Shown: in pieces, positions 30,748 to 63,964 of the stretch | Numbering within the stretch: position 1 is the stretch's first letter | How the letters are laid out: the number at the start of each line of letters is the position of its first letter | NCBI GenBank assembly: GCA_963835405.1 | Contig: CAWIFV010000013.1 | Coordinates: 78,271 to 142,270 of the forward strand | DNA: 64,000 bases | Direction of reading: 5' to 3' | Origin: an uncultured Actinomycetota bacterium | GTDB lineage: Bacteria; Actinomycetota; Actinomycetes; JAFAQI01 | Notes under the pieces: model-generated | The model's database searches: none | What the model saw: only the letters and a program-made list of their open reading frames with translations | What the model was told of the DNA's origin: nothing | Translations under genes and position numbers: made by a program

Positions 30748-30793
30748 CCGTCCACCTCACTGCGGGGGTACCGGCTCCGCCGGCTTCGCCGGA

Positions 30794-43515: not shown

Positions 43516-43585
43516 GGGGACACCTCCGGGTCGGGCATCGACTGTCGACGTCTGATGGCCGGCCGGTGACGCGTCGTTACAGCGA

Positions 43586-44578
43586 TCAGTCGCCGCGGCG
43601 TACGACGTAGTCGCAGAGCGACTCCAACGCGGCCCGGGCCGGGACGTCCGGGAGCGGCTCGAGCATCCCGCGGGCGTCGGCGGCCCAGGTCTGCACGACC
43701 CCGCGGGCCTCCTCCATGACGGGGTGTCGACGAAGGGCGGCGACCGCGTCGGCGAGTACACCGTCGTCCTCAGGTCACCCCCGAGCACTCGGAGGAGCTC
43801 CTCGTCGGACTTGCGTCGCGGCCCGCCGCAGGAGCAGCACCGGCAGGGTCGGGACGCCCTCGCGCAGGTCGGTGCCCGGCGTCTTTCCGGACGCTCCGGA
43901 CTCCGCGGTCGACGTCGAGCAGGTCGTCGGACAGCTGGAACGCGACGCCGATCCGCTCGCCGAACCGGGTGAGCACCTCGGTCGCCGACTCGTCGGCGCC
44001 GGACAGCATCGCGCCGAACCGGCCGGACGTGCCGATCAGCGACCCCGTCTTGTCGGCGACCACCTGCAGGTAGTGCTCCGACCGGGTCGTCGCCGTCCGC
44101 GGGCCCGACGGTCTCGCGGATCTGCCCCTGCACCAGCCGCTCGAAGGTGCGGGCCTGGATGCGGACCGCCTCGGGGCCGAGGTCGGCGAGGATGTCCGAG
44201 GCCCGGGCGAACAGGAAGTCGCCGGTGAGGATCGCGACGGTGTTGCCCCACCGCGCGTTCGCGCGAGGCCGCCCCGCGGCGCAGCGACGCCTCGTCCATG
44301 ACGTCGTCGTGGTAGAGCGTCGCGAGGTGGGTGAGCTCGACGACGACGGCGGCCGGGACCACGCCCGGGCGCCGAGGGTCGCCGAACTGCGCGGCCAGCA
44401 GCACGAGCAGCGGCCGGAACCGCTTGCCGCCGGCGTCCACGAGGTGCTGCGAGGTCTCGGTGACGAACGGGTAGTCGCTCTTCACCGAGTCGCGCAGCAG
44501 CGCCTCGACCGCGTCCAGGCCGGCCCGGATCGCCGCCTCCAGCGCCGGGATCGGCGAAGTCGAGCTCGCGGCGCGTCG
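43586..44578 (-). CDS. trans-Polyprenyl diphosphate synthase (GrcC1/HepT-like, menaquinone side chain); multiple frameshifts
   Basis: Fragments lie across three frames: ...VKSDYPFVTETSQHLVDAGGKRFRPLLVLLAAQFGDP...LTHLATLYHDDVMD (first DDxxD), ...RIGVAFQLSDDLLDV (second DDxxD), C-terminus ...CDYVVRRGD. Boundaries are approximate. Confidence 0.5.
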
Positions 44579-44579
44579 C

Positions 44580-46130
44580 CGGCGTCCTCATCGCACGAAC
44601 GGTACGGCGCGCGTCGGCCAGGTCGAGGACCGGCTGCGGGAACATGCCCAGCACCACGGTGACCGCGACCGCGAGGGCGAGCGCGGCGGCGGAGGCGAGC
44701 CGGGAGCAACGACGACCGGCCCGTCCGACCGACCGGCTCGTGGAAGAACATCATGCACGATGACGCGGACGTAGAAGAAGGCGGCCATCGCGCTCGAGCA
44801 TCGCGCCGACGATGACCAGCGGGGTGGCCCCGCCGCTGATACGCGGCCGAGAAGACGGCGAACTTGCCGGTGAACCCGCTGGTGAGCGGGATGCCGGCGA
44901 GCGCGAGCAGGAACAGCGCGAAGACGCCGGCGATGAGCGGGGAGCGCCGGCCGAGACCCGCCCACCGGGACAGGTGCGTGGCCTCGCCGTCGGGGTCGCG
45001 CACCAGGGTCAGGATGGCGAACGCGCCGACCGTCGTCAAGCCGTAGGCGAGCAGGTAGAACAGCGAGCCCGGACAGGCCGGCCGGTTCAGCGCGATGACC
45101 CCGACGAGGATGAAGCCGGCGTGCGCGACCGAGGAGTAGGCGAGCATCCGCTTGACGTCGGTCTGGGTGACCGCGAACAGCGAGCCGACCGACCATCGTG
45201 AGGATGGCGACGGCCCAGACGACCGGCCGCCAGTCCCAGCCCAGGCCGCCGAACGCGACGTAGAACACCCGCAGCAGCGCGCCGAAGGCGGCGACCTTGG
45301 TCGCCGCCGCCATGAGCGCGGTGATCGGCGTCGGCGCGCCCTGGTAGACGTCGGGGGTCCAGCAGTGGAACGGCGCGGCGCCGACCTTGAACAGCAGCCC
45401 GACCGCCGAGCAGCGCCAGGCCGAGGAAGAGCAGCGTGTCGCCGTGGGTGCCGGTGACCGCGGCGTCGTGGATGCCGCCGAGCGACACCGTGCCGGCGTA
45501 GCCGTAGAGCAGGGCCAGGCCGTAGAGGAAGAAGGCCGAGGAGAACGCGCCGAGCAGGAAGTACTTGACCGCCGCCTCCTGCGACAGCAGCCGGCGGCGC
45601 CGGGCCAGGCCGCACAGCAGGTAGAGCGGCAGCGACAGCACCTCGAGCGCCACGAACATGAGCAGCAGGTCGTTCGCCGCGGGGAAGAGCAGCATGCCCG
45701 CGACGGCGAACATCACCAGCGGGAAGACCTCGCTCTGGGCGCGGCCGGCGGCCGACATCTGCCCGCTCCGTCCGGCGAGCCCGGGCACCGCGGATGCCTG
45801 GGCGGCGAACGCGCCGCCGCCCCCTCCGGGCGACCGGTCCGCGACGAGCAGCACGCTGGCGACCGCGATGACCGCGATCGTGCCCTGGAGGAACAGCGTC
45901 GGGCCGTCGACGGCGATCGCGCCGCCGCCGTGACTGCTCGGTGCCGGCGAGGACGCAGACCGCGACGAGCGCGCCGACGAGGCCGGCCAGGCGAGAGGCC
46001 GAGCTGCGTCGGTCCACCGGCACCCGCGGGGCGCGAACGCCTCGACGAGGACGCCCACGAGCGCCGCGACGCACGACGATCAGCATCGGCAGCGAGCGCC
46101 GAGTAGGAGATCGAGGGCGCGGTGAAGTCG
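44580..46130 (-). CDS. nuoN: NADH-quinone oxidoreductase subunit N (main nuo operon); heavily frameshifted, boundaries approximate
   Basis: NuoN segments are scattered over all three minus frames (GVLVEAFAPRG..., ...FVALEVLSLPLYLLCGL..., MAAATKVAAFGALLRVFYVAFGGLGWDWRPVVWAVAILTMVG, ...IAGVFALFLLALAGIPLTSGFTGKFAVFSAAY, ...GMFPQPVLDLADA). At least 5 frame changes. Confidence 0.5.
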
Positions 46131-47729
46131 GCCGCGACGAGGGCGCCCGGCTCACCGGTGTCGTTCCCTCCGATGCGAGCCCTCGGCGATCGGACGGCCG
46201 CTTCGGGTCGCCGGACGGTCGGACGTCGGTGAAGCTGCTGCTTGCACCGCCGGGTTGATGACGTCGAGCAGCGGCTTCGGGTAGACGCCGAGCACGACGA
46301 TCACCGCCATCACCGGCGCGATCGACCCAGGCCTCGCGCACGGTCAGGTCACGCCATGCCCTCGACGCCCGTCGCGCAGCGGGCCGTGGATCGTGCGCTG
46401 GAACATGAGCAGCACGTAGACCGCGGCGAGGACGATGCCGAACGTCGCCACGACGGCGAACCAGCGGTGGAGGGTGAACGTGCCCGACCAGCACGAGGAA
46501 CTCGCTGACGAACGTGGACAGGCCGGGCAGCGACAGCGCGGACAGGCCGGCCAGCGAGGAACATCGCCGGCCAGCCACGGCGCGACCTTGGCTGACACCC
46601 GCCGAAGTCGTCGATGAGCCGGGAGCCGCGCCGGGTGGCGAGGAAGCCGACGAGCAGGAACAGCGCGCCGGTGGAGAAGCCGTGGTTGACCATGTAGAGC
46701 GTCGCGCCGGAACCGCCCTGGCTGGTGAAGGCGAAGACCCCGAGCGTGATGAAGCCGAAGTGCGAGACCGACGTGTAGGCGACCAGCCGCTTCAGGTCAC
46801 GCTGCCCGATCGCCAGCAGCGCGCCGTAGATGATCCCGACGACCGCTAGCGCCAGGACGTACGGCGCGAACGTCCGTGGACGCGTCCGGGAACAGCGGGA
46901 GGCAGAACCGCAGGAAGCCGAACGTGCCGACCTTGTCGAGCACGCCGACGAGCAGCACCGCCACCCCGGTCGGCGCCTCGGCCGCCGCGTCCGGCAGCCA
47001 GGTGTGGAACGGCCACAGCGGCGCCTTGATGGCGAAGGCGATGAAGAAGCCGAGGAACAGCGCGATCTGCTGCGTTGTGGGACATGTGCAGCTGCGTGGT
47101 CAGCGCCGTGTAGTCGAAGGTCGCGTGGCCCACCTGCTGGAGGCGACGACCGACGAGGCGCGATGACCGCGGCGAGCATGAGCAGGCCGCCGGCGAGGCT
47201 GTAGAGCAGGAACTTCATGGCGGCGTACGAGCGCCGCGGGCCCGCCGTAGGAACCGATCAGGAAGTAGATCGGGATGAGCATGGCCTCGAAGAGCACGTA
47301 GAACAGGAACACGTCGGTGGCCGCGAACACGCCGATCACGATCGTCTCGGTCGACGAGCATCAGCGCGAAGAACGTCTTCGCGCGCTGCGCGTCGTGCCG
47401 CCGTCCGCGTCGTGCCACGAGGCGAGGACGATGATCGGCATCAGCACGGCGGTCATGAGGATCAGGGCGAGCGCGATGCCGTCGACACCCACGCGCGTAG
47501 TTGGCGCCGAACTGCTTGATCCACGTCGTGGTCTGGGCGAACTGGAAGCGCGCGCCGCCGGACGTGGAAGACGCCGCCATGCGATGGCCCGGCGAGCACG
47601 AGCAGCGCGTGCCAGCGCGATCTGCTTGGCCAGGTCGCGGCCGCGGGCACGGACCAGAGGCGGCATGCCGACGAGCGGGATGGCGCCGAGGACGGTCGGC
47701 CAGGGAAGCGGTCGGGTCATCGCCGTCAC
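46130..47729 (-). CDS. nuoM: NADH-quinone oxidoreductase subunit M (main operon); heavily frameshifted, boundaries approximate
   Basis: N-terminus [19 protein letters not shown]...[11 protein letters not shown] (ORF 47361..47729). Middle [20 protein letters not shown] (ORF 46349..47218). Other pieces lie in other frames. Confidence 0.5.
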
Positions 47730-49670
47730 CCGACCCGCACGAGCAGCAGCGCGGCGACCAGGGCGACGGCGCCTACCAGCATCGACAGCGCGTAGGAGCG
47801 GACGAACCCGGTCTGCTCCGCCGGGCCCGCGCGGACGACCCGCCGACGAGCGCGGCGAGCCCGTTGACGCCGCCGTCGACGCCGCGGCCGTCGAAGAAGA
47901 CCAGCGCGCGGGTGAGGTACTGGCCGGGCCGCATGAACACCGACTCGTTCACCGCGTCGCCGTAGAGGTCGGCCGGGCGGCGACGGTCAGCGGGGTGACG
48001 TCGAGCGGCGCTCGACCGGCACCGGCCGCGGCCGTACAGCCACGCGGCCGCGACGACGCCGCCGACCAGCACGAGCAGCGTGATCAGCGCCGAGCACGAG
48101 CGGGGAGATGGTGTGCACGCCGGCCTCCTCGGACGGCCCGACGGCCGGCGCGAGGAAGTGCTGCAGCGCGCCGCCCAGCACGAGCAGGCCGCCCGCGACG
48201 GCCGAGCCGATCGCCAGCACGATCATCGGCGCGGTCATGACCGACGGGCACTCGTGCGGGGTGCGCGTCCTTCGGCCCAGCGGCGGTTGCCGAAGAACGT
48301 CATGAGCATCAGCCGGGTCATGTAGAAGGCGGTGATGCCGGCGCCGACGAGCGCGACGGCCCGAGCACGTAGCCGGACGTGCCGCCCTTGTCGAACGCCG
48401 CCTCGATGATCTTGTCCTTGCGACAGAAGCCGGCGAACCCGGGGAAGCCGATGATCGCGAGGTAGCCGGCGGCGAACGTCAGGAAGGTCCACGGCATGAC
48501 GGTGCGCAGGCCGCCGTACCGGCGCATGTCGACCTCGTCGTTCATGGCGTGCATCACCGATCCGGCGCCGAGGAACATGTTGGCCTTGAAGAAGCCGTGG
48601 GTGAGCAGGTGCAGGATGCCGATCGCGTAGGCGCCCGGGCCGAGCCCGACCGCGAGCATCATGTAGCCGATCTGGCTCATCGTGGAGGCGGCGAGCACCT
48701 TCTTGATGTCGTCGTACGCGCAGCCGATGATCGCGCCCATGAGCAGCGTGACGGCGCCGACGACCTCACCGCAGTCCGGGCGTCGACCGCGACGTCGAAG
48801 ATCGGGTGCGACCGGGCGATCAGGTAGACGCCGGCGGTCACCATCGTCGCGGCGTGGATGAGCGCCGACACCGGAGTCGGGCCCTCCATCGCGTCGAGGA
48901 GCCAGGACTGCAGCGGGACCTGGGCCGACTTGCCGCACGCGCCGAGCAGCAGCAGCAGCCCGATCGCGGTCATGGTGCCGGTGTGCGCCCCGCTCGAGCC
49001 GCGCCGTGAAGACGCCGGCGAACGACACCGTGCCGAACGTGGCGAACATCAGCATGATGCCGAGCGAGAGACCGAGGTCGCCGACGCGGTTGACGAGGAA
49101 CGCCTTCTTCGCGGCGGTCGCGGCCGAGGGCTTGTAGGCCAGAAGCCGATCAGCAGGTACGACGCCAGGCCGACGCCTTCCCAGCCGACGTACAGCGAGC
49201 AGGTAGTTGTCGCGCGAGCACGAGCAGCAGCATCGCCGCGACGAACAGGTTGAGCTTGCCGAAGAAGCGGCGGCGGTCCGGGTCGTGCTCCATGTAGCCG
49301 ATCGAGTAGACGTGGATCAGCGAGCCGACGCCGGTGATCAGCAGCACGAAGACCATGGACAGCGGGTCGATCAGCAGGCTGGCGTCGACGTGGAAGCCCG
49401 ACACCGGCATCCAGGAGAACAGGTGCTGGTCGAGTGACGGCGCTGCGCGCCGGCGCGGCCGGGCATCGCGAGGAACTCGGCGACGCCGATGACGAACGCG
49501 AGCAGCGGAGGCAGGCGCCGAGCAGGTGGCCCCAGGCGTTGGTCCGCCGGCCGCCGAGGAGCAGCACCGCGGCGCTGGCAGCCGGGAGCGCGACGAGCAG
49601 CCAGCTCAGGTGGAAAACACCGGTGACCGGGGCGTACGACCGGCGAAGCCTCGGCGAGAGCGGAGATCAT
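47725..49670 (-). CDS. nuoL: NADH-quinone oxidoreductase subunit L (main operon); heavily frameshifted, boundaries approximate
   Basis: N-terminus [11 protein letters not shown] (ORF 49371..49670). Then ...[16 protein letters not shown]...[19 protein letters not shown] (ORF 49049..49567). Then ...[36 protein letters not shown] (ORF 48677..48973). Others follow. Confidence 0.5.
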
Positions 49671-49678
49671 CCAGGTCC

Positions 49679-49978
49679 TCAGTACTTGAGCAGGTTGGCG
49701 TCGTCGACCGAGGCCGACCGGCGGGTGCGGAAGATGGTGATGATGATCGCCAGCCCGATGACCACCTCGGCCGCGGCGACCACCATGACGAAGAACGCGA
49801 TGATCTGGCCGTCGAGGTCACCGTTGATCCGGCTGAACGTGACGAGCGTCAGGTTGACCGCGTTGAGCATGAGCTCGACGCACATGAAGACGACGATGGC
49901 GTTGCGGCGGACGAGCACGCCGACGGCGCCGATCGTGAACAGCATCGCGGACAGGTACAGGTAGTAGTTGGCGCTCAC
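49679..49978 (-). CDS. nuoK: NADH-quinone oxidoreductase subunit K (main operon), intact
   Basis: ORF track, 99 aa. ...[28 protein letters not shown]... Confidence 0.85.
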
Positions 49979-50804
49979 TCCGAGCCCCCAGGGGTGTGGG
50001 GCAGCGCGCGGGCCACGTCAGGGGGACGGCGCTCCAGCTCCTCCTCGGTGACCGGTAGGTGCGGCCGCGCGGCCGACACCTGCAGGTGCTCCGGGACGCT
50101 GCCGGGCGCGAGGCCACCGTCGGGCAGCAGCGCGGGGGTGTCGACGGCGTCGTGGTCGGCGTAGACGCCGGGGCCGGGCAGCGGTGCGACTCCGGCCCCG
50201 CCGCGAGCGACCCGCTCGTGCATGCGCTCCCGCTGCGTCGGCCGGGGTTGACCCGCTCGCGGTGGGCGAGCACCATCGCCCCCAACCCCGCAGTGATGAG
50301 CAGGGCGCTGGTCGCCTCGAAGGCGAAGACATAGCGGCTGAACAGCAGCTCGGCGATCGCGACGACGTTGCCCTTGCCGTCCTCGGCGGCGGCCACGCCC
50401 TTCGGATGGAAGCTGCCGAGCGTCCCGGCGAGAGCGACGACGAGCAGCAGGGCGAAGCCGAGCCCGAGCACGACCGCGGCGACGCGCTGGCCGCGCAGCG
50501 TCTCGACCAGCGAGTCGGTGGAGTCGACGCCCACCAGCATGAGCACGAACAGGAACAGCATCAGGACGGCGCCGGTGTAGACGACGACCTGGACGACCGC
50601 GAGGAACGGCGCCTCCTCCGCGGTGTAGAACACCGCGAGGGACAGCATCACGACCGCGAGCAGCACGGCGGCGTGCACCGCGCTGCGGACGAGGACCATG
50701 CCGAGCGCCGCGGCGACGGCGACGGGCGCCAGGATCCAGAAGACCGCGGCCTCGTGGGTCGTCGCCTCGCCCGCCGCGAGGACGGCACCGTGGAGCGCGC
50801 TCAT
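49975..50804 (-). CDS. nuoJ: NADH-quinone oxidoreductase subunit J (main operon); 1 frameshift near 50260-50290
   Basis: ORF 49818..50804 carries N-terminal [39 protein letters not shown]... up to ...[11 protein letters not shown]. The C-terminus continues in the frame of ORF 49975... The span is 830 nt. Confidence 0.65.
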
Positions 50805-50809
50805 GCGGT

Positions 50810-51413
50810 CCCTTCGGGCAGCTCGGCCTCGGTGGCACCAGCCGACCCTCCTGCCCGGGGTCGCCGGGCACCGGGGTCACCCGACCACCGAGGTAGTAGT
50901 CCTTCTCGTCGTCGCCGAGCCGCATCGGGTGCGGCGGTGCCTCCATGCCCGGCAGCAGCGGGCGAGCAGCTGCTCCTTGGTGTAGATGAGGTCCTCGCGG
51001 CTGTCGTCGGCGAGCTCGTACTCGTTGCTCATCGTCAGGGCGCGCGTCGGGCAGGCCTCGATGCACAGCCCGCAGAAGATGCAGCGCAGGTAGTTGATCT
51101 GGTAGATGCGGCCGTACCGCTCCCCGGGCGAGTACCGCTCCTCCTCGGTGTTGTCGGCGCCCTCGACGTAGATCGCGTCGGCCGGGCAGGCCCAGGCGCA
51201 CAGCTCACAGCCGATGCACTTCTCCAGCCCGTCGGGGTGGCGGTTGAGCACGTGCCGGCCGTGGTAGCGCGGCGCGGTGGGCTGCTTCTCCTCCGGGTAC
51301 TGCTCCGTCACCGGCTTCTTGAACATCGTGGTGAACGTCACCCCGAAGCCGGCGATCGGGGCGAGCAAGTCGTGCAGCGCCCCGCGGGGCTTCGGCTCGC
51401 GTGGCTCAGTCAT
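50810..51413 (-). CDS. nuoI: NADH-quinone oxidoreductase subunit I (main operon); frameshift near the 3' end
   Basis: ORF 50877..51413 has two 4Fe-4S motifs ([24 protein letters not shown]). The conserved C-terminus ...[14 protein letters not shown] is in another frame. Confidence 0.65.
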
Positions 51414-52690
51414 GAGTCACCTCCATCGCCGCGCCGGTCCGGTCGGCCAGCACGGGTATCGGGTAGCCGCCCGGCCCGGGTTCGGCGTCGGCCGACCGCT
51501 CGGCCTCGACGACCTTGTTCTCCGTGAAGAACGACGCGAGCAGGACGATGACCGCGAGCGGGATTCCCACGTAGGCGAGAGTCTCGAACCGGGTGCGGCC
51601 CTCGTTGGTCAGCTCCCGGAAGGCGGCGACGATCAGCACCCAGACGAGGCTGGCCGGGATGAGGACCTTCCAGCCGAGAGCCATGAACTGGTCGTAGCGC
51701 AGCCGCGGGAGCGTGCCCCGCAGCCAGATGAAGAAGAAGAGCAGGAAGACAGCTTGCCGAGGAACCAGATCATCGGCCACCAGCCGGTGTTGGCGCCGTC
51801 GTCGACCGCCGACAGCGGCCACGGTGCGCGCCAGCCGCCGAGGAACAGCGTCGTCGCCAGCGCGGAGACGGTGGTCATGTTGATGTACTCGGCGAGGAAG
51901 AACATCGCGAACTTGATCGAGGAGTACTCGGTGTGGAACCCGGCGACGAGCTCGCTCTCGGCCTCGGGCAGGTCGAACGGCGCCCGGTTGGTCTCGCCCA
52001 CCATCGCGATCAGGTAGATGACGAACGACGGGATCAGCGGCAGCGCGTACCAGAGCTTCGCCTGCGCGCTCGACGATCTCGCTCGTCGACAGCGACCCGG
52101 AGTAGAGGAAGACCGCGGCCAGCGCGAGGCCCATCGCGACCTCGTAGGAGATGACCTGGGCCGCCGACCGCAGCCCGCCGAGCAGCGGGTAGGGCGACTG
52201 CAGGACCAGCCCGCGAGCACGATGCCGTAGACCCCGATGGCGGCCATCGCGAGGATGAACAGCACCGCGACCGGCAGGTCGGTGAGCTGCAGCGGGGTGC
52301 GTGACCGAAGATCGACACGACCGGCCCGAACGGGATGACCGCGAAGGACAGGAACGCCGGGATCGGTCGCGACCAGCGGCGCCAGGATGTAGAGCGGCTG
52401 GTCGGCCAGCGCCGGGATGAGGTCCTCCTTGAGCACGAGCTTGACGCCGTCGGCGAGACCCTGCACCATCCCGAACGGGCCGACCCGGTTGGGCCCGGGC
52501 CGTTGCTGCATCCGGCCGATGACCGGCGCTCGGCCCAGATCATCAGCACGTCGTCACCACCAGGAAGACGAAGATGACGACGGTCTTCAGGATGATCGAG
52601 CCACCACGGGTCCTGGTCGGAACAGCCCGAGGTGGGCGCCGCCGCTCGTGCGACGCCGCGAGCACCTCCCGTCACGGCCATCCCCGCCGC
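51406..52690 (-). CDS. nuoH: NADH-quinone oxidoreductase subunit H (main operon); 3 or more frameshifts, boundaries approximate
   Basis: ...DPWWL...MIWAERR (ORF 52034..53056). [25 protein letters not shown]...[23 protein letters not shown] (ORF 51633..52511). ...[25 protein letters not shown] (ORF 51406..52134). Confidence 0.55.
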
Positions 52691-55111
52691 TGATGCGGAC
52701 GAGCGACACCGGCCGTCACGCCCGAGCGCCGCGTGCACGTGCGAGCCCGGCGAGTACGTCGGGAGCCAGACGACCCGGTCGGGCAGGTCGGCGAGCACGC
52801 ACGGCAGCGTGATCGAGCCCCGCGCTCGGTGCTGACCGTGACGAGCGTCCCCCGCTCGACGCCGATCTCCTTGGCGGTCGTCTCCGCCAGGCGCGCCGGG
52901 CGGCCGCCGGGTGCCGGCGAGGTAGGGCTCGCTGCTCCTGCAGCCGGCCGTCGTCGAGCAGCAAGTGCCACGTCGCGAGGACCGCCTCGCCCGCCTGCGG
53001 ACTGCGGCGGCGCGACGGGAGCCTCCCCGGCGCCGCGGGGCGGACGCCGCCCGCACGCCCGAGCCGGCGGATCTCCTGCTGCACCGGGGCGGGGGTCGCC
53101 GTCACCCAGGTCGAACCCCATCTCGTCGGCGAGCAAGTCGAGCACCCGGCCGTCGGACAGGGCGCCGGTCGCCTCGAGGGTCGCGTCGAACGGGCGCGCG
53201 CGCCCCTCCCAGTCCAGGTAGGTGCCGGCCTTCTCGACCGCCGGCGCGACCGGGAGGACCACGTCGGCCCGGTCGGTGACCGCGGAGTCGCGGAGCTCGA
53301 GGCTGACGAGGAACGGGGCGTTGTCGATCGCGTCGAGGGCGAGCTGCGGGTCGGGGAGGTCGTCCGGGTCGACGCCGGCGACGACGAGCGCAAGCTCGCC
53401 GGCCGCGGCCGCGCGCAGGATCCCGACGGCGTCCCGGCCCGGTTCGGCCGGGGGCTCGGCGCCCCAGACGCCGCGACCTCCGCACGTGCCGCGGCGTCGG
53501 AGAGCGGGCGGCCGCCGGGCAGCAGCCCGGGGAGGCAGCCCGCCTCGACCGCACCGCGGTCGCCGGCCCGGCGTGGCACCCAGGCCAGCCGGGCGCCGGT
53601 CCGGCGGCCAGCCGGCGCCGCGCTGAGAGCGCCGGGGACGGTGGCGAGCCGCTCGCCGACGAGGATGACCGCGCCCGGCTTGGCGCAGCGCCTCGGCGGC
53701 GGCCGCGCCGGCGTCGTCGAGCCGGTCGTCTCCCGCCGCCAACGCGGCGAGCGATCTCGGGCTCGGTGCCGGGGGCGCTGCGCAGCAGCCGGCCGCCGAG
53801 CTTGCGCAGCCCGGCGGTGGCGAACGGCGCGATCCGAGAACACGCCGAGCGTGCCCGCCTGCACCGCCTTGCGCAGCCGCAGGAAGACGATCGGCGACTC
53901 CTCCTCCGGCTCGAAGCCCGGCGAGCAGCACGGCGGGTGCGTGCCTCGAGGTCGGCGTAGGTCGCCTCGAGGTAGCGGCCGGCGACGCGGGCGGCGAGGA
54001 AGTCCTGCTCCTCGACCGAGTGCGGTCGGGCGCGGAAGTCGACGTCGTTGGTGCCGAGCGACGACCCGGGCGAACTTGGCGTAGGCGTAGGCGTCCTCGA
54101 CGGTGAGCCGGCCACCGGTGAGGACGCCGACCCGGCCACGGCGGCGGCCAGACCGTCGGCCGCCCGCGCGAGCGCGTCGCTCCACGACGCCTCGACGAGG
54201 TAGCCGTCGTCGTCGCGGACCAGCGGGGTCGCGGAGCCGGTCCTTGGCGGTGGCGTACTGAACGCCCACCGGCCCTTGTCGCAGTTCCACTCCTCGTTGA
54301 CGGCGGGGTCGTCGCCGGCGAGCCGGCGCATCACCTTGCCGCGCCGCCAGTCGGTGCGCTGCTGGCAGCCGGACGAGCAGTGCTCGCAGACGCTCGGCGT
54401 GGACACGAGGTCGAACGGGCGGGCGCGGAAGCGGTACTGCGCACCGGTGAGGGCACCGACCGGACAGATCTGCACGGTGTTGCCGGAGAAGTAGGAGTCG
54501 AACGGCTCGTCGGTGTAGATCGCGACCTGCTCCAGGGCGCCGCGCTCGAACAGCTCGATGAACGGGTCACCGGCGATCTGCTGGGAGAACCGCGTGCAGC
54601 GGGCGCAGAGCACGCACCGCTCGCGGTCGAGCAGCACCTGGCAGGAGATCGCGATCGGCTTCTCGAAGGTGCGCTTCGGTCGTGGAAGCGCGACTCGCTC
54701 GGAGCCGTTGGTGAGGGTCTGGTTCTGCAGCGGGCACTCGCCGCCCTTGTCGCACATCGGGCAGTCGAGCGGGTGGTTGAGCAGCAGGAGCTCGAGGTTG
54801 CCGCGCTGCGCCTTCTCCGCGACCGGCGACGTGAGCTGGGTCTTGACCACCATGCCGTCGGTGACGGTCGTCGTGCACGACGGCGAGCGGCTTGCGCTGG
54901 CCCTCGACCTCGACGATGCACTGCCGGCAGGCACCGATCGGGTCGAGCAGCGGGTGGTCGCAGAAGCGCGGGATCTGGATGCCGAGCAGCTCGGCGGCCC
55001 GGATGACCAGCGTGCCCTTGGGCACGGCGGATCTCGACGCCGTCGATCGTGCACGTGACGGTCTCGACCGCGGCGTCCGCCGGACGGTTCGGAGGACGTG
55101 GGGCTCGTCAT
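52690..55111 (-). CDS. nuoG: NADH-quinone oxidoreductase subunit G (main operon); 4 or more frameshifts, boundaries approximate
   Basis: MTSPTSSEP start at 55111. ...[47 protein letters not shown] (ORF 54567..55292). ...[21 protein letters not shown]...VCEHCSSGC (ORF 53102..55111). C-terminus ...[26 protein letters not shown] in ORF 52034..53056. Confidence 0.55.
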
Positions 55112-55159
55112 CGGGACGCGCTCCGGCGGCGAAGAGGGTCGACGCCATCGGGTCGAACG

Positions 55160-56403
55160 GGCAGCCGCCCTGCTCGAAGTGCGCGACGTACTCGTCCTTG
55201 AAGTACTTCACCGACGACGTGATCGGGCTGGTCGCGCCGTCGCCGAGCGCGCAGAACGCCCGACCGAAGATGTTGTCGCAGGCGTCGAGCAACGTGTCGA
55301 TGTCCTGTCGCGTCGCCCTCGCCCTTCTCGAGCCGCTCGAGGATCTGCACCATCCAGTAGGTGCCTTCGCGGCACGGCGTGCACTTGCCGCACGACTCGT
55401 GCGCGTAGAACTCGGTCCAGCGCAGCACGGCCCGCACCACGCACGTCGTGTCGTCGAAGATCTGCAGCGCCTTGGTGCCGAGCATCGACCCGGCCGCGCC
55501 GATCGCCTCGTAGTCGAGGGGGACGTCGAGGTGCTCCGCGGTGAGGATCGGGGTCGACGAGCCGCCGGGCGTCCAGAACTTCAGCTCGTGGCCCTCCCGC
55601 ACACCGCCGGCGAGGTCGAGCAGCTCGCGCAGCGTGACGCCGAGCGGCGCCTCGTACTGGCCGGGACGCGTCACGTGGCCGGACAGCGAGTAGAGGGTGA
55701 ACCCGGGCGACTTCTCGGTGCCGAACGAGCGGAACCACTCGACGCCCTTGTCGACGATCGCCGGCACGCTCGCGATCGACTCCACGTTGTTGATGACCGT
55801 CGGGCTGGCGTAGAGGCCCTCGACGGCGGGGAACGGCGGGCGCAACCGCGGCTGGCCGCGGTAACCCTCGAGCGAGTCGAGCAGCGCGGTCTCCTCGCCG
55901 CAGATGTAGGCGCCGGCACCGGCGTGCACGACGACGTCGAGCGAGTAGCCGGTGCCGAGCACGCGCGGACCGAGGATGCCGGCCGCGTAGGCCTCCTTGA
56001 CGGCCGCCTGCAGCCGCCGGACGACGTGCAGCACCTCGCCGCGGACGTAGATGAACGCGAGGTTGGCGCGGATCGCGTACGACGAGATGACGACGCCCTC
56101 CAGCAGCACGTGCGGGCTGGCGAGCATGAGCGGAATGTCCTTGCAGGTGCCCGGCTCGGACTCGTCGGCGTTGACGACCAGGTAGTGCGGCTTGCCGTCG
56201 TCCTGCGGGATGAACCCCCACTTGTTCCCGGTGGGGAAGCCGGCTCCGCCCCGACCGCGCAGACCCGAGTCCTTCACCATCTGGATGACGGCGTCGGGCT
56301 CCATCGCCAGCGCCTTGCGCGCGCCTGCGTAGTCGCCGTAACCGTCGAGGGTCCACGGCCGCTCGTCGCCCCAGTTGGCCGACAGGACCGGCGTCAGGCT
56401 CAT
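55160..56403 (-). CDS. nuoF: NADH-quinone oxidoreductase subunit F (main operon); frameshift near 55330
   Basis: ORF 55108..56553 from [22 protein letters not shown] carries [13 protein letters not shown] and [13 protein letters not shown] motifs. The C-terminus ...[48 protein letters not shown] is in ORF 54567..55292. Confidence 0.65.
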
Positions 56404-58404: not shown

Positions 58405-58432
58405 AGGTCCTCCACCCCGTGGTGCCGCCGGC

Positions 58433-59212
58433 TCATGCGTATGACCTTCTGATGTCGGGCGGCGGGATCTGCGCGCCCTTGTACTCCACCGGTACGCCGC
58501 CGAGGGGGTAGTCCTTGCGCTGCGGGTGCCCCGGCCAGTCGTCGGGCATCTCGATCCGGGTGAGGGCCGGGTGGCCGTCGAAGACGATGCCGAAGAAGTC
58601 CCAGGTCTCCCGCTCGTGCCAGTTGGCCGTCGGGTAGACGTCGGTCACGCTCGGCACGTGCGGGTCGGCATCGGAGACCGAGACCTCGAGGCGCAGCCGA
58701 CGGCGGAACGACATCGACAGCAGGTGGTAGACGGCGTGCAGCCGGCGACCGGTGGGGTCGTTGGGATAGTCGACGCCGGACACCCCGCTGCAGTGCTCGA
58801 AGCGAAGCCCGGGGTCGTCGCGCAGCTGCCGGCAGATGTCGACGATCGCCTCGCGCCGCACGAACAACGTCAGCTCGCCCCGGTGCACGACCACGCGCTC
58901 GATGGCGTCGTGGAAGCCGGGGTAGGCCTGCTCCAGCGCATCCGTCGCCTCGTCGAACCAGCCGCCGTAGGGCCTGGGCGAGGACGCCAGCTGCGGCGGC
59001 CGGACGACGAGGCCACCGAAGCCGGACGTGTCACCGAACCCGCTGGCACCGAACATGTCGCTGCGCCGACCGCGCGCGACATCACTGGACGCGCCCACAC
59101 CCGCGGTGTCGCCGGAGGCGGTGTCGCCGGAGGCGGTGTCGCCGCCGGTGTCATCGGAGGCGGCTACGCCGCCGGTGTCATCGACGACGTCCGGACCCTC
59201 GGACTCGCTCAT
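58433..59212 (-). CDS. nuoC: NADH-quinone oxidoreductase subunit C (main operon), intact, with Asp/Gly/Thr-rich N-terminal extension
   Basis: ORF track, 259 aa. ...[42 protein letters not shown]. Confidence 0.9.
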
Positions 59213-60806
59213 ACGTCCTCCACCCCGCCCGGCACCCGAGGGCCGCGCCGGCTCACTGGTGCACCATCCTCAGGTCACTGGTCTCCGATGGATCGGTGAT
59301 GCGCCCCAGGTGCCGCCAGGTCATCGCCCTGCTCGCTTGACGCGGTTGATGTCCAGCATGAGATCTGCGAGATCTGGCGGTTACCCGGGACGTGCAGACC
59401 GTCGACAGGGCTGAGCGCCAAGGCCACGTGCCGCGAGCGCCGATCAGTGAGCGAACCGGCAGCCACGTTCCGGCACCACCGGCACCACAAGCGGGCGCCT
59501 CCCCACTGGGACTAGCAGCGAGGAGGCTGACGTGAAGTCTGCCAGCACAACCCTGCCCGAGACACCCCCCAACGACGTAACCGGCGGCCTGGACTGGTCC
59601 CGCGATGACCACGCAGTGTCGGTCGTGGATGCTCGCGGCCGTGAACTGCTGCGGCACACCGTCGAGCACAGCGCGGCCGGGCTGCGCGAGCTGATCGCGG
59701 TGCTCACCGATGCCGACTGTGAGGAAGTCGCCATCGAACGCCCGGACGGGCCGGTCGTCGACGCGCTGCTCGCCGCCGGGCTGACCGTGGTGGTGATCAG
59801 CCCGAACCAGGTCAAGAACCTGCGTGGCCGCTATGGCTCGGCCGGCAACAAGGACGACCGGTTCGACGCGTTCGTGCTCGCTGACACGCTGCGCACCGAC
59901 CGGGCCCGGCTTCGCCCGCTCACCCCGGACCGTCCGGAGACGGTGACGCTGCGCCGGCTGGGCCGGGCGCGCAAGGACCTCATCCGGCACCGCGTCGCCG
60001 CCGCCAACCAGCTGCGCGCCCACCTGCGCCTGGCGTTCCCCGGCGCGGTCGGCCTGTTCGCCGAGATCGACAGCCCGATCAGCCTGGCGTTTCTGACCCG
60101 CTTCCCCACCCAGGACAAGGCGGACTGGCTGACCCCGCAACGCCTCGGCGACTGGCTGGCTAAGCAGAGATACTCCGGCAAGGTCGACCCCGCAGTGCTG
60201 CACGCCCGACTGCTCGCCGCGCCACGCGGCCTCACCGGCACCGACGCCGCCGTCAACGCGCACATCACCGCGGCCCTGGCCGCGCTGCTGGCCAGCCTGC
60301 TCGAGCAGATCAAGGCCCTGTCCACACAAATCGGCACCCAGCTCGACGCGCACCTCGACGCGCACATCTTCATCAACCTGCCGCGCGCTGGCCGCGTGCG
60401 CGCCGCCCGGCTGCTCGGCGAGATCGGCGACTGCCGCGCCCGCTTCCCCACCCCCGAGTCGCTGACCTGCCTGGCCGGCGCCGCCCCCTCCACCAGGCAG
60501 TCCGGCAAGAGCCGCTCCGTCGGGTTCCGCTGGGCCTGCGACAAACAACTCCGAGACGCCGTCTGCGACTTCGCCGGCGACAGCCGACGCGCCAACCCAT
60601 GGGCCGACAAGCTCTACCGCGACGCCCGCGCCCGAGGACACGACCACCCGCACGCGGTCCGCGTCCTGGCCCGCGCTTGGCTCTACGTGATCTGGCACTG
60701 CTGGCAAGACAGCGTCGCCTACAACCCCAACAAGCACCGCGCCCTGCAACGCGTCCTCGCGGAGGAAAACAAGATCATTCCTCAGGCAGGTTGACACAGG
60801 GGCTTC
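59213..60806 (+). mobile_element. IS110-family insertion sequence (about 1.6 kb) between nuoC and nuoB of the main nuo operon, in the opposite orientation to the operon
   Basis: Bounded by the nuoC start (59212) and the nuoB stop (60807). Contains a single transposase gene with about 320 bp of 5' leader. No terminal inverted repeats, as expected for IS110. Exact ends not determined. Confidence 0.7.
59532..60794 (+). CDS. IS110-family (DEDD-type) transposase
   Basis: ORF track, 420 aa. N-terminal DEDD-like region GLDWSRDDHAVSVVDARGRELL. C-terminal transposase-20-like region ...LPRAGRVRAARLLGEIGDCRARFPTPESLTCLAGAAPSTRQSGKS... Confidence 0.85.
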   Translation: MKSASTTLPETPPNDVTGGLDWSRDDHAVSVVDARGRELLRHTVEHSAAGLRELIAVLTDADCEEVAIERPDGPVVDALLAAGLTVVVISPNQVKNLRGRYGSAGNKDDRFDAFVLADTLRTDRARLRPLTPDRPETVTLRRLGRARKDLIRHRVAAANQLRAHLRLAFPGAVGLFAEIDSPISLAFLTRFPTQDKADWLTPQRLGDWLAKQRYSGKVDPAVLHARLLAAPRGLTGTDAAVNAHITAALAALLASLLEQIKALSTQIGTQLDAHLDAHIFINLPRAGRVRAARLLGEIGDCRARFPTPESLTCLAGAAPSTRQSGKSRSVGFRWACDKQLRDAVCDFAGDSRRANPWADKLYRDARARGHDHPHAVRVLARAWLYVIWHCWQDSVAYNPNKHRALQRVLAEENKIIPQAG

Positions 60807-61409
60807 TCATGCCTGCTCTCCCGGAACAGGCGCGGGGAAGGTGAGCGGCGTGTCCACCGCGAGGCCCTGGGAGACGCGGGTGTCGCGCACGATCGGCTTC
60901 TCGTAGGGAGACTCCTCGAGCGTCGTCCAGGCGGGCTTGCCGTTGATGGGCGCGGCCTTGATCTTGTCGTGCAGCTTGAGGATGGCGTCGAGGAGCATCT
61001 CCGGCCGGGGCGGGCAGCCCGGCAGGTACATGTCCACGGGCACCACGTGGTCGACTCCCTGGACGACGGCGTAGTTGTTGAACATGCCACCGCTGCTGGC
61101 GCACACGCCCATGGCCAGCACCCACTTGGGCTCGGGCATCTGGTCGTAGATCTGGCGCAGGACCGGGGCCATCTTCTGCGACACCCGGCCGGCGACGATC
61201 ATCAGGTCGGCCTGGCGCGGGGTGGCGGAGAACCGCTCCATGCCGAACCGGGCGATGTCGAACCGCGGTCCGCCGACGGCCATCATCTCGATCGCGCAGC
61301 ACGCGAGGCCGAACTGTGCCGGCCACAGCGAGTTCTTCCGGGCGATGTTGAGCACCTTGGCGACCGTCGTCAGCAGGATGCCTTCGGGCAGCTTCTCCTC
61401 GAGACCCAT
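60807..61409 (-). CDS. nuoB: NADH-quinone oxidoreductase subunit B (main operon)
   Basis: Start [20 protein letters not shown]... [10 protein letters not shown]...[10 protein letters not shown]...[11 protein letters not shown]. The stop lies 13 nt from the IS transposase stop. Confidence 0.85.
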
Positions 61410-61413
61410 GGCG

Positions 61414-61764
61414 TCAGTCCCAGTCGAGGCCGCCGCGACGCCAGACATAGGCGTAGACGACGAAGACGGCGACGATGAACAGGATCATCTCGACCAGCCC
61501 GAACATGCCGAGCTTGTCGAACGCGACGGCCCACGGGTAGAGGAAGATGATCTCGATGTCGAAGACGATGAACAGCATCGCGGTGAGGTAGTACTTCACC
61601 GGCATGCGGTGGCCCTGGAACGCCTGGCGGGTGGGTTCGATGCCGCACTCGTAGGACTCGAGCTTCGCCCGGTTGAACCGCTTGGGACCGGTCAGGGCGC
61701 CCGCGACAACCGAGAAGACCGCGAAGCCGGCCCCGATGCCGAAGAGGACCAGGATGGGAACCAC
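61414..61764 (-). CDS. nuoA: NADH-quinone oxidoreductase subunit A (main operon)
   Basis: ORF track, 116 aa. [27 protein letters not shown]... Confidence 0.85.
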
Positions 61765-63089: not shown

Positions 63090-63172
63090 CGGGCCCGTCC
63101 CCTGCCGGAAGGAGAGATTGTGAATGCCTTCACAAGACCGGCCCAGTCTAGGCCGGGCGGGGCGTCCGGTGC

Positions 63173-63964
63173 TCAGCCGGGGTCTGCCCCCGGTCGAACT
63201 GCCCCCGGCCGAACTGCCCCCGGTCGAACTGCCCCCGGTCGAACTGCCCCCGGTCGAACTGCCCCCGGTCGAACTGCAGAGTGCACGGCCACCGCTCCGA
63301 ACAGCAGGTCGCGCCAGGTCACCTGCTCCCAGCCGGCCGACCGCAGCGCCGCGGCCAGCTCGGGCTGGGAGAGCCAGGCCCCGGCGGACTCGGCGAGGTA
63401 GGCATAGGCCGCGGGGTCGGAGGCGAGCACCCGGGCGAAGCGCGGCATCACCGTCGAGGTGTAGAAGCCGTTGGCCGCGCGGAGCAGCCGCGACGGCGGT
63501 GTCGAGGTCTCGAGCACGACGAGCCGGCCCCCGGGGCGGGTGACGCGGGCCAGCTCGGTGAGGGCCGCCCCGACGTCGGCGACGTTGCGCAGGCCGAAGG
63601 AGACGGTGACGACGTCGAAGGCGGCGGCGGCGAACGGGAGCCGGAGCGCATCGCCGGCCACGAACGTCAGCTCGGGATGGCGCCGGTGCCCCTCCGCCAG
63701 CATCCCCGGGGAGAAGTCGCAGGCGACCGTGCGCGCGCCCGCCGCGGCGAACGGCAGCGACGACGTGCCGGTGCCGGCGGCGAGGTCCAGCACCAGATCC
63801 GTGGGCCGGGCCGCCACCGACCGAGCCACGATCCGGCGCCACCGGCGCTCCTGGCCGAAGGTCATGACGGCGTTCATCGCGTCGTACCGAGGGGCGACCG
63901 CGTCGAACATCCGGGCGACGTCGCCCGGTCGCTTCTCCAGCGTGGCGCGGGCCATGGGCGTCAT
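63173..63964 (-). CDS. menG: Demethylmenaquinone methyltransferase MenG/UbiE with a C-terminal (AVRPG)n repeat extension
   Basis: ORF track. SAM motif LDLAAGTGTSS. C-terminus ...AVHSAVRPGAVRPGAVRPGAVRPGAVRPGAVRPGADPG. Confidence 0.85.
   Translation of the reverse strand: MTPMARATLEKRPGDVARMFDAVAPRYDAMNAVMTFGQERRWRRIVARSVAARPTDLVLDLAAGTGTSSLPFAAAGARTVACDFSPGMLAEGHRRHPELTFVAGDALRLPFAAAAFDVVTVSFGLRNVADVGAALTELARVTRPGGRLVVLETSTPPSRLLRAANGFYTSTVMPRFARVLASDPAAYAYLAESAGAWLSQPELAAALRSAGWEQVTWRDLLFGAVAVHSAVRPGAVRPGAVRPGAVRPGAVRPGAVRPGADPG
63181..63278. repeat. Tandem 15-bp direct repeat (gaactgcccccggtc), about 6.5 copies, within the 3' end of menG
   Basis: 63196-63270 carries five perfect or near-perfect head-to-tail units plus degenerate flanking copies. 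Units are in frame, encoding AVRPG. Confidence 0.85.

What the first reader, a model, noticed from the sequence alone, without database searches (positions are those of the whole stretch)
59213..60806. IS110-family element inserted between nuoB and nuoC of the canonical complex I operon
Seen: a 420-aa IS110/DEDD-type transposase gene (plus strand) with about 320 bp of leader exactly fills the gap between the nuoC start (59212) and the nuoB stop (60807). The two run antiparallel to the 14-gene nuo operon. No terminal inverted repeats are present, which is normal for this family.

Established: IS110 elements insert site-specifically without target duplications and can create outward promoters when inserted.

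Inference: the insertion splits nuoAB from nuoC-N and should be polar on 12 downstream genes unless the IS supplies a promoter. The downstream genes are the same ones riddled with frameshifts. So either the operon is being inactivated, or the organism tolerates or compensates for this, for example via nuo2 or NDH-2.
Basis: partly seen in the sequence, partly recalled or inferred. Interest (0 to 1): 0.6.

Follow-up and report, generated by a model that had tools for sequence, protein, structure and literature searches.

The report
Bridge-RNA insertion sequence between nuoB and nuoC
A real, RNA-guided IS110-family mobile element sits exactly at the stop codon of nuoB in a complex I operon, in the orientation and at the kind of gene junction this clade favours, and there is no sound evidence that it is killing the operon.

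Summary
A 420-aa IS110-family transposase gene lies antiparallel to nuo, between nuoB and nuoC. The element itself is shorter than the gap, about 59252-60807, a net insertion of 1554 bp. The 39 nt next to nuoC are a native spacer carrying nuoC's ribosome-binding site.

Its 278-nt leader encodes a bridge RNA. The right target guide (59356-59362, GCATGAG) is the exact reverse complement of the right junction CTCATGC. The same position covaries with the flank in about 60 related elements. An uninterrupted paralogous spacer at nuoC/nuoD serves as an empty site. Eight relatives have nuoB and nuoC contiguous. So this is a genuine, lineage-specific, guide-matched insertion and not a mis-join.

The indel tract runs from about 43.5 to 55.3 kb. 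It starts inside nuoF, spares nuoC, nuoD and nuoE, and extends into a polyprenyl synthetase gene beyond nuoN. It looks like consensus error.

The clade also keeps an element-spanning antisense ORF, like hed of IS900. It enters at a host ATG or GTG supplied by the target and exits at a GTGA overlap. Related copies are enriched at stop/start gene junctions. The insertion may therefore be only weakly polar. In this copy, one extra G breaks that ORF's link to the ATG.

The parts
59252..60807 (+). IS110-family element including both copies of the CT core (59252-53 and 60806-07). The net insertion is 1554 bp.
   Evidence: Sharp homology boundaries against 80 related loci. The paralogous uninterrupted spacer reads GCATGAG|CCGGCG at nuoC/nuoD.
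59532..60794 (+). Transposase / bridge recombinase gene, 420 aa, GTG start preceded by GAGGAGG (59520-26). Motif candidates for the catalytic residues are D21, E69, D109, D112 and S324-G325.
   Evidence: Pfam and NCBIfam matches. The start position is conserved as ATG, GTG or TTG in relatives. The residues were picked by eye from short motifs located in the translation, not from an alignment to IS621.
59254..59531 (+). Left end encoding the bridge RNA. It has a 5' stem-loop (59274-59300), a closing stem (59301-05 with 59494-98), a target-binding loop module (59309-59385) and a donor-binding loop module (59386-59472).
   Evidence: RNAalifold on 54 sequences gave 70 pairs, 28 of them with compensatory changes.
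59331..59337 (+). Left target guide GCTCGCT, ending in the core CU. It matches the actual left flank only at G+CT.
   Evidence: The CGCT/CACT variants track a G or A at the flank base before the core in L033 and L052. 31 of about 57 sites have CG|CT.
59356..59363 (+). Right target guide GCATGAG, the reverse complement of the right junction CTCATGC (60806-60812). It is followed by handshake base A59363, which is complementary to donor T60805.
   Evidence: The 7-mer at this offset matches each locus's own flank in about 60 of 69 loci. The three variable positions match 2.84 of 3, against 1.29 in shuffles (0 of 10000 shuffles reached the observed value). The handshake concept is from PMC11208158.
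59405..59412 (+). Left donor guide ACAGGGCU, matching the right end ACA(C/T)AGGGCT.
   Evidence: The C/T in the guide covaries with the C/T in the right end across the clade. In the window the right end has GGGG where the guide has GGG.
59445..59452 (+). Right donor guide CAGUGAG, the reverse complement of the left-end start CTCACTG. It is followed by handshake base C59452, which is complementary to the conserved G before the core in targets.
   Evidence: L033 has T here and A in its target.
60791..60796 (+). TTGACA -35 box in the right end, overlapping the transposase stop codon. On a circular right-end/left-end junction it would lie 19 nt (18 nt in relatives) from CACCAT (TACCTT in relatives) at 59262-67.
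   Evidence: Conserved in all relatives. The junction-promoter principle is from PMC11208160. The promoter itself is inferred.
60799..60802 (+). GGGG run carrying one G more than every related element and more than the element's own donor guide.
   Evidence: Removing one G restores a 518-codon antisense ORF starting at the flank ATG.
59253..60797 (-). Element-spanning antisense ORF, hed-like, 514 codons from GTG 60797, running in the same direction as nuo. Its stop codon TGA (59255-53) lies inside the left-end terminus.
   Evidence: A stop-free antisense frame spans 58 of 61 relatives. In the left end it is open in 53 of 57, and indels come in multiples of three at four hot spots.
59209..59256 (-). 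15-codon mini-ORF running from GTG (59256-54, supplied by the IS end and overlapping the antisense ORF's TGA) to TGA (59211-09, overlapping the nuoC ATG at 59212-10). It contains the native spacer and the GGAGGA ribosome-binding site.
   Evidence: Read from the sequence. A paralogous 11-codon mini-ORF lies between nuoC and nuoD.
58405..58432 (-). nuoC-nuoD spacer. It is a paralogue of the nuoB-nuoC spacer and an unoccupied copy of the same target (GCCGGCTCATGC).
60807..61448 (-). nuoB, intact. Its TGA stop (60809-07) straddles the core T and the right flank CA, so it is preserved by the insertion.
58433..59212 (-). nuoC, intact, with its own ribosome-binding site.

Best explanation
This is a genuine, lineage-specific insertion of an actinobacterial IS110-family element of the IS110 group, with IS900-like organisation. 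Its left end encodes a bridge RNA.

Shown:
- The bridge RNA's right target guide pairs with CT+CATGC at the nuoB stop codon, and its donor guides pair with the element's own ends.
- The target GC-ATGAG-C is a stop/start overlap motif. Insertion after the AG (CT on the plus strand) leaves the nuoB TGA intact and leaves nuoC with its own ribosome-binding site.
- The orientation, with the transposase antiparallel to nuo, is fixed by the target sequence. It places the clade's conserved element-spanning antisense ORF in the operon's reading direction.
- The frameshift-dense tract further downstream is unrelated to the IS.

Inferred:
- In relatives the antisense ORF starts at the host ATG or GTG that the target supplies, and it ends at a TGA inside a GTGA overlap that restarts the host frame. 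Host transcription and translation could therefore run through the element, which would limit polarity.
- In this copy a +1 G in the right end disconnects the ORF from the ATG and mismatches the donor guide. The copy may be partly disabled.
For: Family and boundaries:
- Family membership by Pfam and NCBIfam.
- Sharp element ends against 80 related loci.

Guide RNA:
- The right target guide matches the right flank in the window and in about 60 of 69 relatives. 0 of 10000 shuffles reached the observed match.
- The donor guides and handshake bases covary with the element ends and with the target.
- The left-end fold carries 28 compensatory pairs.

Insertion site:
- A paralogous empty site exists at nuoC/nuoD.
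- Relatives have contiguous nuoB/nuoC.

Antisense ORF and target preference:
- The ORF from the flank xTG to the terminal TGA is intact in 53 of 61 elements.
- Left-end length classes differ by multiples of three at four separate hot spots. All three sense frames are closed in 57 of 57.
- 42% of related sites lie exactly at an upstream gene's TGA, against 5.6% of random xTGAG sites (p = 3e-13).

Frameshift tract:
- It is not specific to nuo and has the profile of sequence error.

Literature:
- Bridge RNA model, PMC11208160.
- Handshake guides, PMC11208158.
- IS900 hed, PMC8141618.
Against: - No reads, transcripts or second copy of this exact element were available. Population frequency, activity and polarity are therefore untested.
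- The left target guide matches the actual left flank only at G+CT.
- The donor-guide match is offset by 3 nt from the core, unlike IS621.
- In this copy the antisense ORF is out of frame with the captured ATG.
- The left-end part of the ORF shows no third-position excess of variation, so a functional protein is not indicated.
- Long antisense ORFs are common in this 70% G+C genome.
- Two weak terminator-like hairpins lie on the nuo-sense strand inside the IS.
Confidence: 0.85

Rival explanations
1. Polar, inactivating insertion. The IS blocks expression of nuoC-N, selection on them is relaxed, and the frameshifts record the decay of complex I.
For: About 1.55 kb of foreign DNA separates nuoAB from nuoC-N, and no promoter-like site faces nuoC. 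In this copy the antisense ORF is detached from the ATG. Many frame breaks exist in nuoF-N.
Against: nuoC, nuoD, nuoE and most of nuoF, the genes nearest the IS, are intact. The tract starts mid-gene at 55308 and runs beyond nuoN into a polyprenyl synthetase gene. Its indels are symmetric and 1-2 nt long. There are no substitution stops in about 2600 corrected codons, and synonymous changes still dominate. The nuo2-like cluster lacks D, E, F and G, so loss of complex I would not be backed up by it.
Confidence: 0.12
2. Assembly artefact. A multicopy IS was wrongly placed or chimerically joined between nuoB and nuoC.
For: The same contig contains a 12-kb stretch of poor consensus. IS elements are classic sites of mis-assembly.
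Against: The two flanks reconstitute one continuous spacer with a paralogue at nuoC/nuoD. The site matches the element's own right target guide at 7 of 7 positions. The region 55.3-64 kb has no frame breaks in eight genes.
Confidence: 0.03
3. The insertion is real, but the antisense ORF and the gene-junction preference have no function. The open frame is a by-product of high G+C. The enrichment at TGA/ATG junctions arises only because insertions elsewhere are purged.
For: Antisense ORFs opposite nuoC, nuoD and nuoF are equally long in this window. There is no codon-position signal in the left-end part. The translated ORF has no family match. The function of hed in IS900 has remained unknown since 1997.
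Against: G+C content cannot explain indels restricted to multiples of three at four separate hot spots of a non-coding RNA region. It also cannot explain why only one of six frames is open there. Nor can it explain the in-frame ATG, GTG or CTG supplied by the guide-specified target together with a terminal GTGA.
Confidence: 0.3

Closest known systems
IS621 / IS110-group bridge recombinases (Durrant et al. 2024, PMC11208160; Hiraizumi et al. 2024, PMC11208158)
   Same: It has a DEDD RuvC-like domain plus a Tnp domain. The left end encodes an RNA with a 5' stem-loop and two internal-loop modules. All four guides end in core-pairing bases (CU or AG). The core is CT. Handshake positions covary with the opposite DNA partner. 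A -35 box sits in the right end, suited to a circle-junction promoter. There are no terminal inverted repeats and no target duplication.
   Different: The protein is too diverged for phmmer to reach any PDB entry: 420 aa against 326 aa for IS621. Target reading is dominated by a 7-nt right guide with a short left guide of about 4 nt, the reverse of IS621 (9 and 4). The left donor guide matches a stretch offset 3 nt from the core. The element also carries a conserved full-length antisense ORF, which the two bridge-RNA papers consulted here do not discuss in the passages read.
IS900 of Mycobacterium avium subsp. paratuberculosis and its hed ORF (Doran et al. 1997, as cited in PMC8141618)
   Same: It is an actinobacterial IS110-family element. 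An ORF on the strand complementary to the transposase spans the whole element and has no start codon or ribosome-binding site of its own. Insertion occurs in a fixed orientation at host translation-initiation signals.
   Different: Sequence relatedness to IS900 was not tested here. From my memory, IS900 is said to insert between the ribosome-binding site and the ATG. This clade inserts just after xTG-AG, so the host start codon itself is captured and a GTGA overlap is created at the exit. The link between this geometry and a bridge-RNA guide is not mentioned in any paper held in the searched library.
IS1111 group / seekRNA elements (Siddiquee et al. 2024, PMC11187229)
   Same: They have the same transposase type and RNA-guided target choice.
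   Different: IS1111-type elements have subterminal inverted repeats. From my knowledge, their long non-coding region lies downstream of the transposase. Here the 278-nt non-coding region is upstream, only 11-13 nt follow the stop codon, and no terminal repeats are present.

Membership tests
IS110 family (IS110 group) | N-terminal DEDD / RuvC-like transposase domain | tested here: met
   PF01548, E = 6e-36, covering profile positions 2-155 of 155. Motifs GLD21WS, AIE69RP and D109-x2-D112 are present (residues assigned by analogy).
IS110 family (IS110 group) | C-terminal Tnp domain (Transposase_20) with a conserved Ser-Gly | tested here: met
   PF02371, E = 8e-17, covering 2-87 of 87. RQS324G325K is present.
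IS110 family (IS110 group) | Curated whole-protein model reached | tested here: met
   NF033542 'IS110 family RNA-guided transposase', 165.4 bits against a cut-off of 140.
IS110 family (IS110 group) | No terminal inverted repeats and no target duplication beyond the core dinucleotide | tested here: met
   No inverted repeat links the two ends (the ends were also read directly). Comparison with the paralogous empty spacer shows that only CT is shared.
IS110 family (IS110 group) | Long non-coding left end encoding a bridge RNA whose two loops pair with target and donor | tested here: met
   Structure with 28 compensatory pairs. Covariation between the right target guide and the flank. Donor guides match the ends and covary with them. 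No Rfam family reached threshold.
IS110 family (IS110 group) | Excision to a circle that rebuilds a promoter across the right-end/left-end junction | not testable with these tools
   Only the conserved TTGACA in the right end and a candidate -10 in the left end are seen.
IS900-like elements with a hed ORF | ORF on the complementary strand spanning the whole element, without its own start codon or ribosome-binding site | tested here: met
   Present in 58 of 61 relatives, and in the window as 59253-60797. In the window it is out of frame with the captured ATG because of one extra G.
IS900-like elements with a hed ORF | Orientation-specific insertion at host translation-initiation signals | tested here: met
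   The flank supplies an in-frame ATG (39), GTG (15) or CTG (5). 27 of 48 sites lie at a gene start or stop in the matching frame, and the TGA classes are enriched 7.5-fold.
IS900-like elements with a hed ORF | Sequence relatedness to IS900 itself | not tested
   No IS900 sequence was available in the collections used.
IS1111 group | Subterminal inverted repeats and a guide RNA region downstream of the transposase | tested here: not met
   The non-coding region is upstream (278 nt). Only 11-13 nt lie downstream. No terminal repeats were found.

The most novel reading that the evidence does not exclude
In this actinobacterial IS110 clade, the bridge RNA's right target guide is constrained to read xx-xTG-AG, which is the ATGA/GTGA stop/start overlap of operon genes. 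Insertion therefore fuses an element-long antisense ORF to the host start codon. The left-end terminus supplies a GTGA overlap that hands ribosomes back to the downstream host gene. The ORF, the long-unexplained hed of IS900-type elements, would then act as a translational bridge that makes insertions inside operons non-polar. It would be selected for being open, not for its protein product, even though it overlaps the bridge RNA.
Probability: 0.4. Interest if true: 0.7.

Novelty: new member of a known kind. Interest (0 to 1): 0.42.

Why it matters
As a single locus this is an ordinary IS insertion in an uncultured Mycobacteriales-like genome. It does show that the apparent 'decay' of complex I in this window should not be read as biology without checking the reads.

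The wider value lies in the clade. About 60 natural guide/target pairs show a bridge-RNA design in which the right guide dominates. The elements home to stop/start overlaps inside operons. They maintain a reading frame straight through their guide-RNA gene.

If the antisense ORF really carries host translation across the element, two things follow. It would explain the hed ORF of IS900-type elements. It would also describe a way for a mobile element to sit inside essential operons at little cost. That is relevant to IS900 biology and to the design rules of bridge recombinases.

Tried and rejected
- Rfam scan of the region. Nothing meaningful was found; the best hit had E = 0.08 to an unrelated sRNA.
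- PDB sequence search with the transposase. No hit.
- Search for further copies or an empty allele. There is no repeat in the window. Two metagenome scans, one for the empty site and one for the right end, found nothing. Exact-protein look-ups for the transposase and for NuoC found nothing. The one genome-contig scan returned only relatives at 81% identity or less.
- Alternative core position, with the CT inside GGG-CT-TCTCA. This was suggested by the left donor guide ending in GGGCU. I rejected it for three reasons. The paralogous empty spacer reads GCATGAG|CCGGCG with no extra TCT. The right target and right donor guides both end in the AG that pairs with the CT next to CA. The base after the right target guide behaves as a handshake base for donor position 7.
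- The idea that the 39-44 nt between the IS and nuoC were brought in by the IS, or arose as a duplication caused by it. I rejected it because the same cassette occurs natively between nuoC and nuoD.
- The idea that the right flank CATGCCTG was carried over from an earlier site. I rejected it because it conflicts with the guide logic.
- Test for amino-acid-level selection on the antisense ORF in the left end, using variability by codon position. The result was negative.
- Pfam and NCBIfam scans of the antisense ORF product. No match.
Full report
**1. Checking the observation**

The ORF map confirms nuoC (58433-59212), nuoB (60807-61448) and nuoA (61414-61764) on the minus strand. It also confirms a 420-aa plus-strand ORF at 59532-60794. 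Pfam assigns the three nuo products to Complex1_30kDa, Oxidored_q6 and Oxidored_q4. It assigns the 420-aa product to DEDD_Tnp_IS110 (6e-36) plus Transposase_20 (8e-17). NCBIfam NF033542, 'IS110 family RNA-guided transposase', is passed at 165 bits against a cut-off of 140. No second copy of the element lies in the window.

**2. Exact boundaries**

A scan of one genome per species found 463 relatives. The best 80 are 71-81% identical in protein, and none is identical.

- Nucleotide homology to them starts abruptly at 59251/59252 (G|CTCACTGG...). It ends at ...TTGACA-CAGGGGCTT-CTCA (60809). Beyond these points every locus has different sequence.
- Both ends share CTCA.
- I place the 2-nt core at CT (59252-53 and 60806-07), for a net insertion of 1554 bp.
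- The strongest support is an internal control. The nuoC-stop/nuoD-start spacer reads GCATGAG-CCGGCGGC...CGGGGTGGAGGACCT-ATGAGCGAG. The nuoB/nuoC region reads GCATGAG-[IS]-CCGGCGCGGC...CGGGGTGGAGGACGT-ATGAGCGAG.
- The nuoC/nuoD spacer is therefore an unoccupied paralogue of the target. It also shows that the 39 nt between the IS and nuoC, including GGAGGA 5 nt before the ATG, are native.
- The nuoB stop codon TGA (60809-07) is made of the core T plus the flank CA, so it existed before insertion.
- No terminal inverted repeats link the ends.

**3. The leader encodes a bridge RNA**

Durrant et al. showed that IS110 left ends encode an RNA with two internal loops. The left guides have the sense of the top strand of the left target or left donor plus the core. 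The right guides are complementary to the core plus the right target or right donor (PMC11208160).

*Right target guide.* The heptamer GCATGAG at 59356-59362 is the exact reverse complement of the right junction CTCATGC. In about 60 of 69 related loci, the heptamer at the same left-end offset is the reverse complement of that locus's own flank. Examples are CACAG with CTGTGAG, CAGAG with CTCTGAG, CATCG with CGATGAG, CACGC with GCGTGAG and CGTTC with GAACGAG. At least 13 guide types occur. Over 57 distinct pairs, the three variable positions match 2.84 of 3. Shuffled flanks give 1.29, with a maximum of 1.79 in 10000 shuffles.

*Donor guides.* CAGTGAG (59445-51) is complementary to the left-end start CTCACTG. 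ACAGGGCT (59405-12) equals the right end ACA(C/T)AGGGCT, and its C/T covaries with the C/T in the right end.

*Handshake bases.* The base after the right target guide (A, T or G) is complementary to the last right-end base before the core (T, A or C). The base after the right donor guide (C) is complementary to the conserved G before the core in targets. L033 has T in the guide and A in its target. This is the 'handshake guide' pattern of Hiraizumi et al. (PMC11208158).

*Left target guide.* GCTCGCT (59331-37) is nearly invariant in the clade. Flanks agree with it mainly at (C)G+CT. The window's flank matches only G+CT.

*Fold.* RNAalifold on 54 left ends gives a 5' stem-loop, a closing stem and two stem/internal-loop modules. 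There are 70 pairs, 28 of them with compensatory changes.

*Other checks.* Rfam has no matching family. The protein is too far from IS621 for phmmer against the PDB.

The site occupied in nuo is thus the site this element's own RNA specifies. That argues strongly against a mis-join.

**4. Relatives of the host**

The best NuoD homologues are 94% identical or less and come from Mycobacteriales-type MAGs and soil metagenomes. The window's own genome is not in the collections. In eight related contigs nuoB and nuoC overlap by ATGA or GTGA, with no IS (alignment). The insertion is lineage-specific. Metagenome scans found no empty allele and no further copy.

**5. The frameshifts**

I compared the window with the intact operon of GCA_035776655.1, which is 83% identical in nucleotides.

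- nuoA, nuoC, nuoD, nuoE and nuoK each align in a single frame. The nuoB ORF is intact, with its Pfam domain and a gap-free alignment to that relative.
- nuoF changes frame at 55308.
- nuoG, nuoH, nuoI, nuoJ, nuoL and nuoM are broken many times.
- A GC3 hidden-Markov segmentation shows that fragmentation is confined to about 43.5-55.3 kb. The rest of the window, including the IS region and a nuo2-like cluster, is clean.
- The tract contains 47 one-nt deletions, 43 one-nt insertions and 20 two-nt indels in 8157 aligned bases.
- After projection onto the reference frame, the broken genes keep 82-91% amino-acid identity. Synonymous differences mostly outnumber non-synonymous ones. No stop codon is created by substitution.
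- The tract starts inside nuoF. It continues past nuoN into a polyprenyl synthetase gene, which is also split between frames.

This is the signature of a locally unpolished consensus, not of decay triggered by the IS. Reads are needed for certainty.

**6. An unexpected clade property that bears on polarity**

The minus strand of the element, which is the nuo direction, carries an ORF from 60797 to 59253. Such ORFs are common in high-G+C DNA, so I tested it against the relatives.

- In 58 of 61 distinct relatives, one antisense frame is stop-free over at least 95% of the element. The other two antisense frames carry mostly 6-25 stops.
- Within the left end, which is non-coding on the sense strand, all three sense frames are closed in 57 of 57 sequences. 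The antisense frame in phase with the terminal TGA is open in 53 of 57.
- At four separate indel hot spots of the bridge-RNA region, length classes differ by multiples of three. The classes are 3/6; 3/6/12/15; 10/22/25/28/34/37/40; and 5/11/14/17/23/26/29. Only singletons fall outside these classes.
- The ORF is open into the right flank. The first flank base after CTCA makes an in-frame ATG (39 cases), GTG (15) or CTG (5). In 53 of 61 elements the ORF runs from that codon exactly to the TGA inside the left-end terminus CCA-GTGA-G.
- That terminus offers a GTG in the frame of the displaced host codon.
- No third-position excess of variation is seen in the left-end part. The product matches no family. 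What is conserved is openness, not a protein sequence.

IS900 is reported to carry just such an element-spanning complementary ORF, named hed for 'host expression dependent'. It lacks its own start codon and ribosome-binding site (PMC8141618, citing Doran et al. 1997). Only that one paper in the searched library mentions hed together with IS110.

**7. Target niche**

I examined 48 distinct related sites with clean flanks.

- 12 sit at a 4-nt stop/start overlap, with an upstream high-GC3 ORF ending at the TGA and a downstream ORF starting at the xTG.
- 8 sit at an upstream stop only. The window belongs to this group.
- 7 sit at a downstream start only.
- Among 1056 random [AG]TGAG sites in the same flanks, the two TGA classes make up 5.6%. 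Among the IS sites they make up 42% (p = 3e-13).

The nuoB/nuoC site is therefore typical of the clade. The antiparallel orientation of the transposase is dictated by the target strand.

**8. What this means for the window**

As sequenced, the chain in the nuo direction is as follows.

- nuoB ends at TGA (60809-07).
- The antisense ORF runs from GTG 60797 to TGA 59255-53.
- A 15-codon mini-ORF starts at the overlapping GTG (59256-54) and ends at a TGA that overlaps the nuoC ATG (59212-10).
- nuoC follows, with its own GGAGGA.

The captured ATG (60811-09) overlaps the nuoB TGA. It is out of frame with the long ORF only because the right end has GGGG (60799-60802). All relatives, and the element's own donor guide, have GGG there. 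Deleting one G restores a 518-codon ORF from that ATG. The extra G may be a real mutation that would also weaken donor recognition, or it may be a homopolymer error. The surrounding 8.7 kb shows no frame errors, so I lean slightly toward a real mutation.

No sigma-70-like promoter faces nuoC. Two weak terminator-like hairpins lie on the nuo-sense strand inside the IS. Polarity is therefore undetermined. The architecture argues that it need not be strong.

The nuo2-like cluster at 24.3-33.4 kb has A, a probable B (inferred from DNA similarity to nuoB, with no Pfam hit), part of C, and H-N. It has no D, E, F or G, so it could not substitute for complex I.

**9. Verdict**

This is a real, guide-matched, lineage-specific insertion of a new member of the IS110 family. 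The inference that it is inactivating the operon is not supported by the sequence. Taken alone, the locus is of modest interest. The more interesting result is the clade-level link between bridge-RNA targeting of stop/start overlaps and a conserved element-spanning antisense ORF. That link is a hypothesis here and needs transcript, ribosome and reporter tests.

Noticed in passing
window 43500-55310: A 12-kb tract holds about 110 one- or two-nt indels, with insertions about as frequent as deletions. It breaks the 3' end of nuoF, nuoG-J, nuoL-N and the polyprenyl synthetase gene after nuoN, while the rest of the window is frame-clean. After frame correction there are no substitution stops and amino-acid identity is 82-91%. 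It looks like an unpolished consensus patch.
   Followed up: yes
window 24350-33400: A second, intact nuo-like cluster on the minus strand has A, a probable B, a partial C, and H, I, J, K, L, M and N. It has no D, E, F or G homologues. It is about 70% identical in DNA to patches of the main operon.
   Followed up: partly
window 58405-58432 and 59213-59251: The nuoC-nuoD and nuoB-nuoC spacers are paralogous cassettes (GCATGAGCCGGCG...CGGGGTGGAGGACNT-ATGAGCGAG). Each forms a mini-ORF of 11 or 15 codons, chained by ATGA overlaps to the genes on both sides. Relatives have the nuoC-nuoD spacer but not the nuoB-nuoC one, so the latter looks like a lineage-specific copy or gene conversion.
   Followed up: partly
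window 59030-59190: NuoC has an N-terminal insertion of about 32 aa made of DTASG/DDTGG-type repeats that relatives lack. NuoB in turn has a shorter C-terminal tail than some relatives.
   Followed up: no
window 42924-43294: Eleven tandem 27-nt units encode RTX-type calcium-binding nonapeptide repeats (PF00353) in the ORF 42835-44133, just downstream of the polyprenyl synthetase gene.
   Followed up: no
window 63169-63288: Six tandem 15-nt repeats (CTGCCCCCGGTCGAA) lie at the 3' end of the UbiE-like methyltransferase gene. They encode a PGAVR pentapeptide repeat that is absent from relatives.
   Followed up: no
L046, L061, L064, L070 (left ends) and L017, L046 (right ends): Some related elements carry short tandem duplications of their termini: a second copy of the first ~45 nt of the left end, or of GGCTTGACAYAGGGC in the right end. 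These may be traces of aberrant recombination at the ends.
   Followed up: no
L043, L071, L008, L080, L076 and others: About 9 of 69 related copies sit at flanks that do not match their own right target guide. These may be off-target insertions, or guide or flank mutations that arose after insertion.
   Followed up: no
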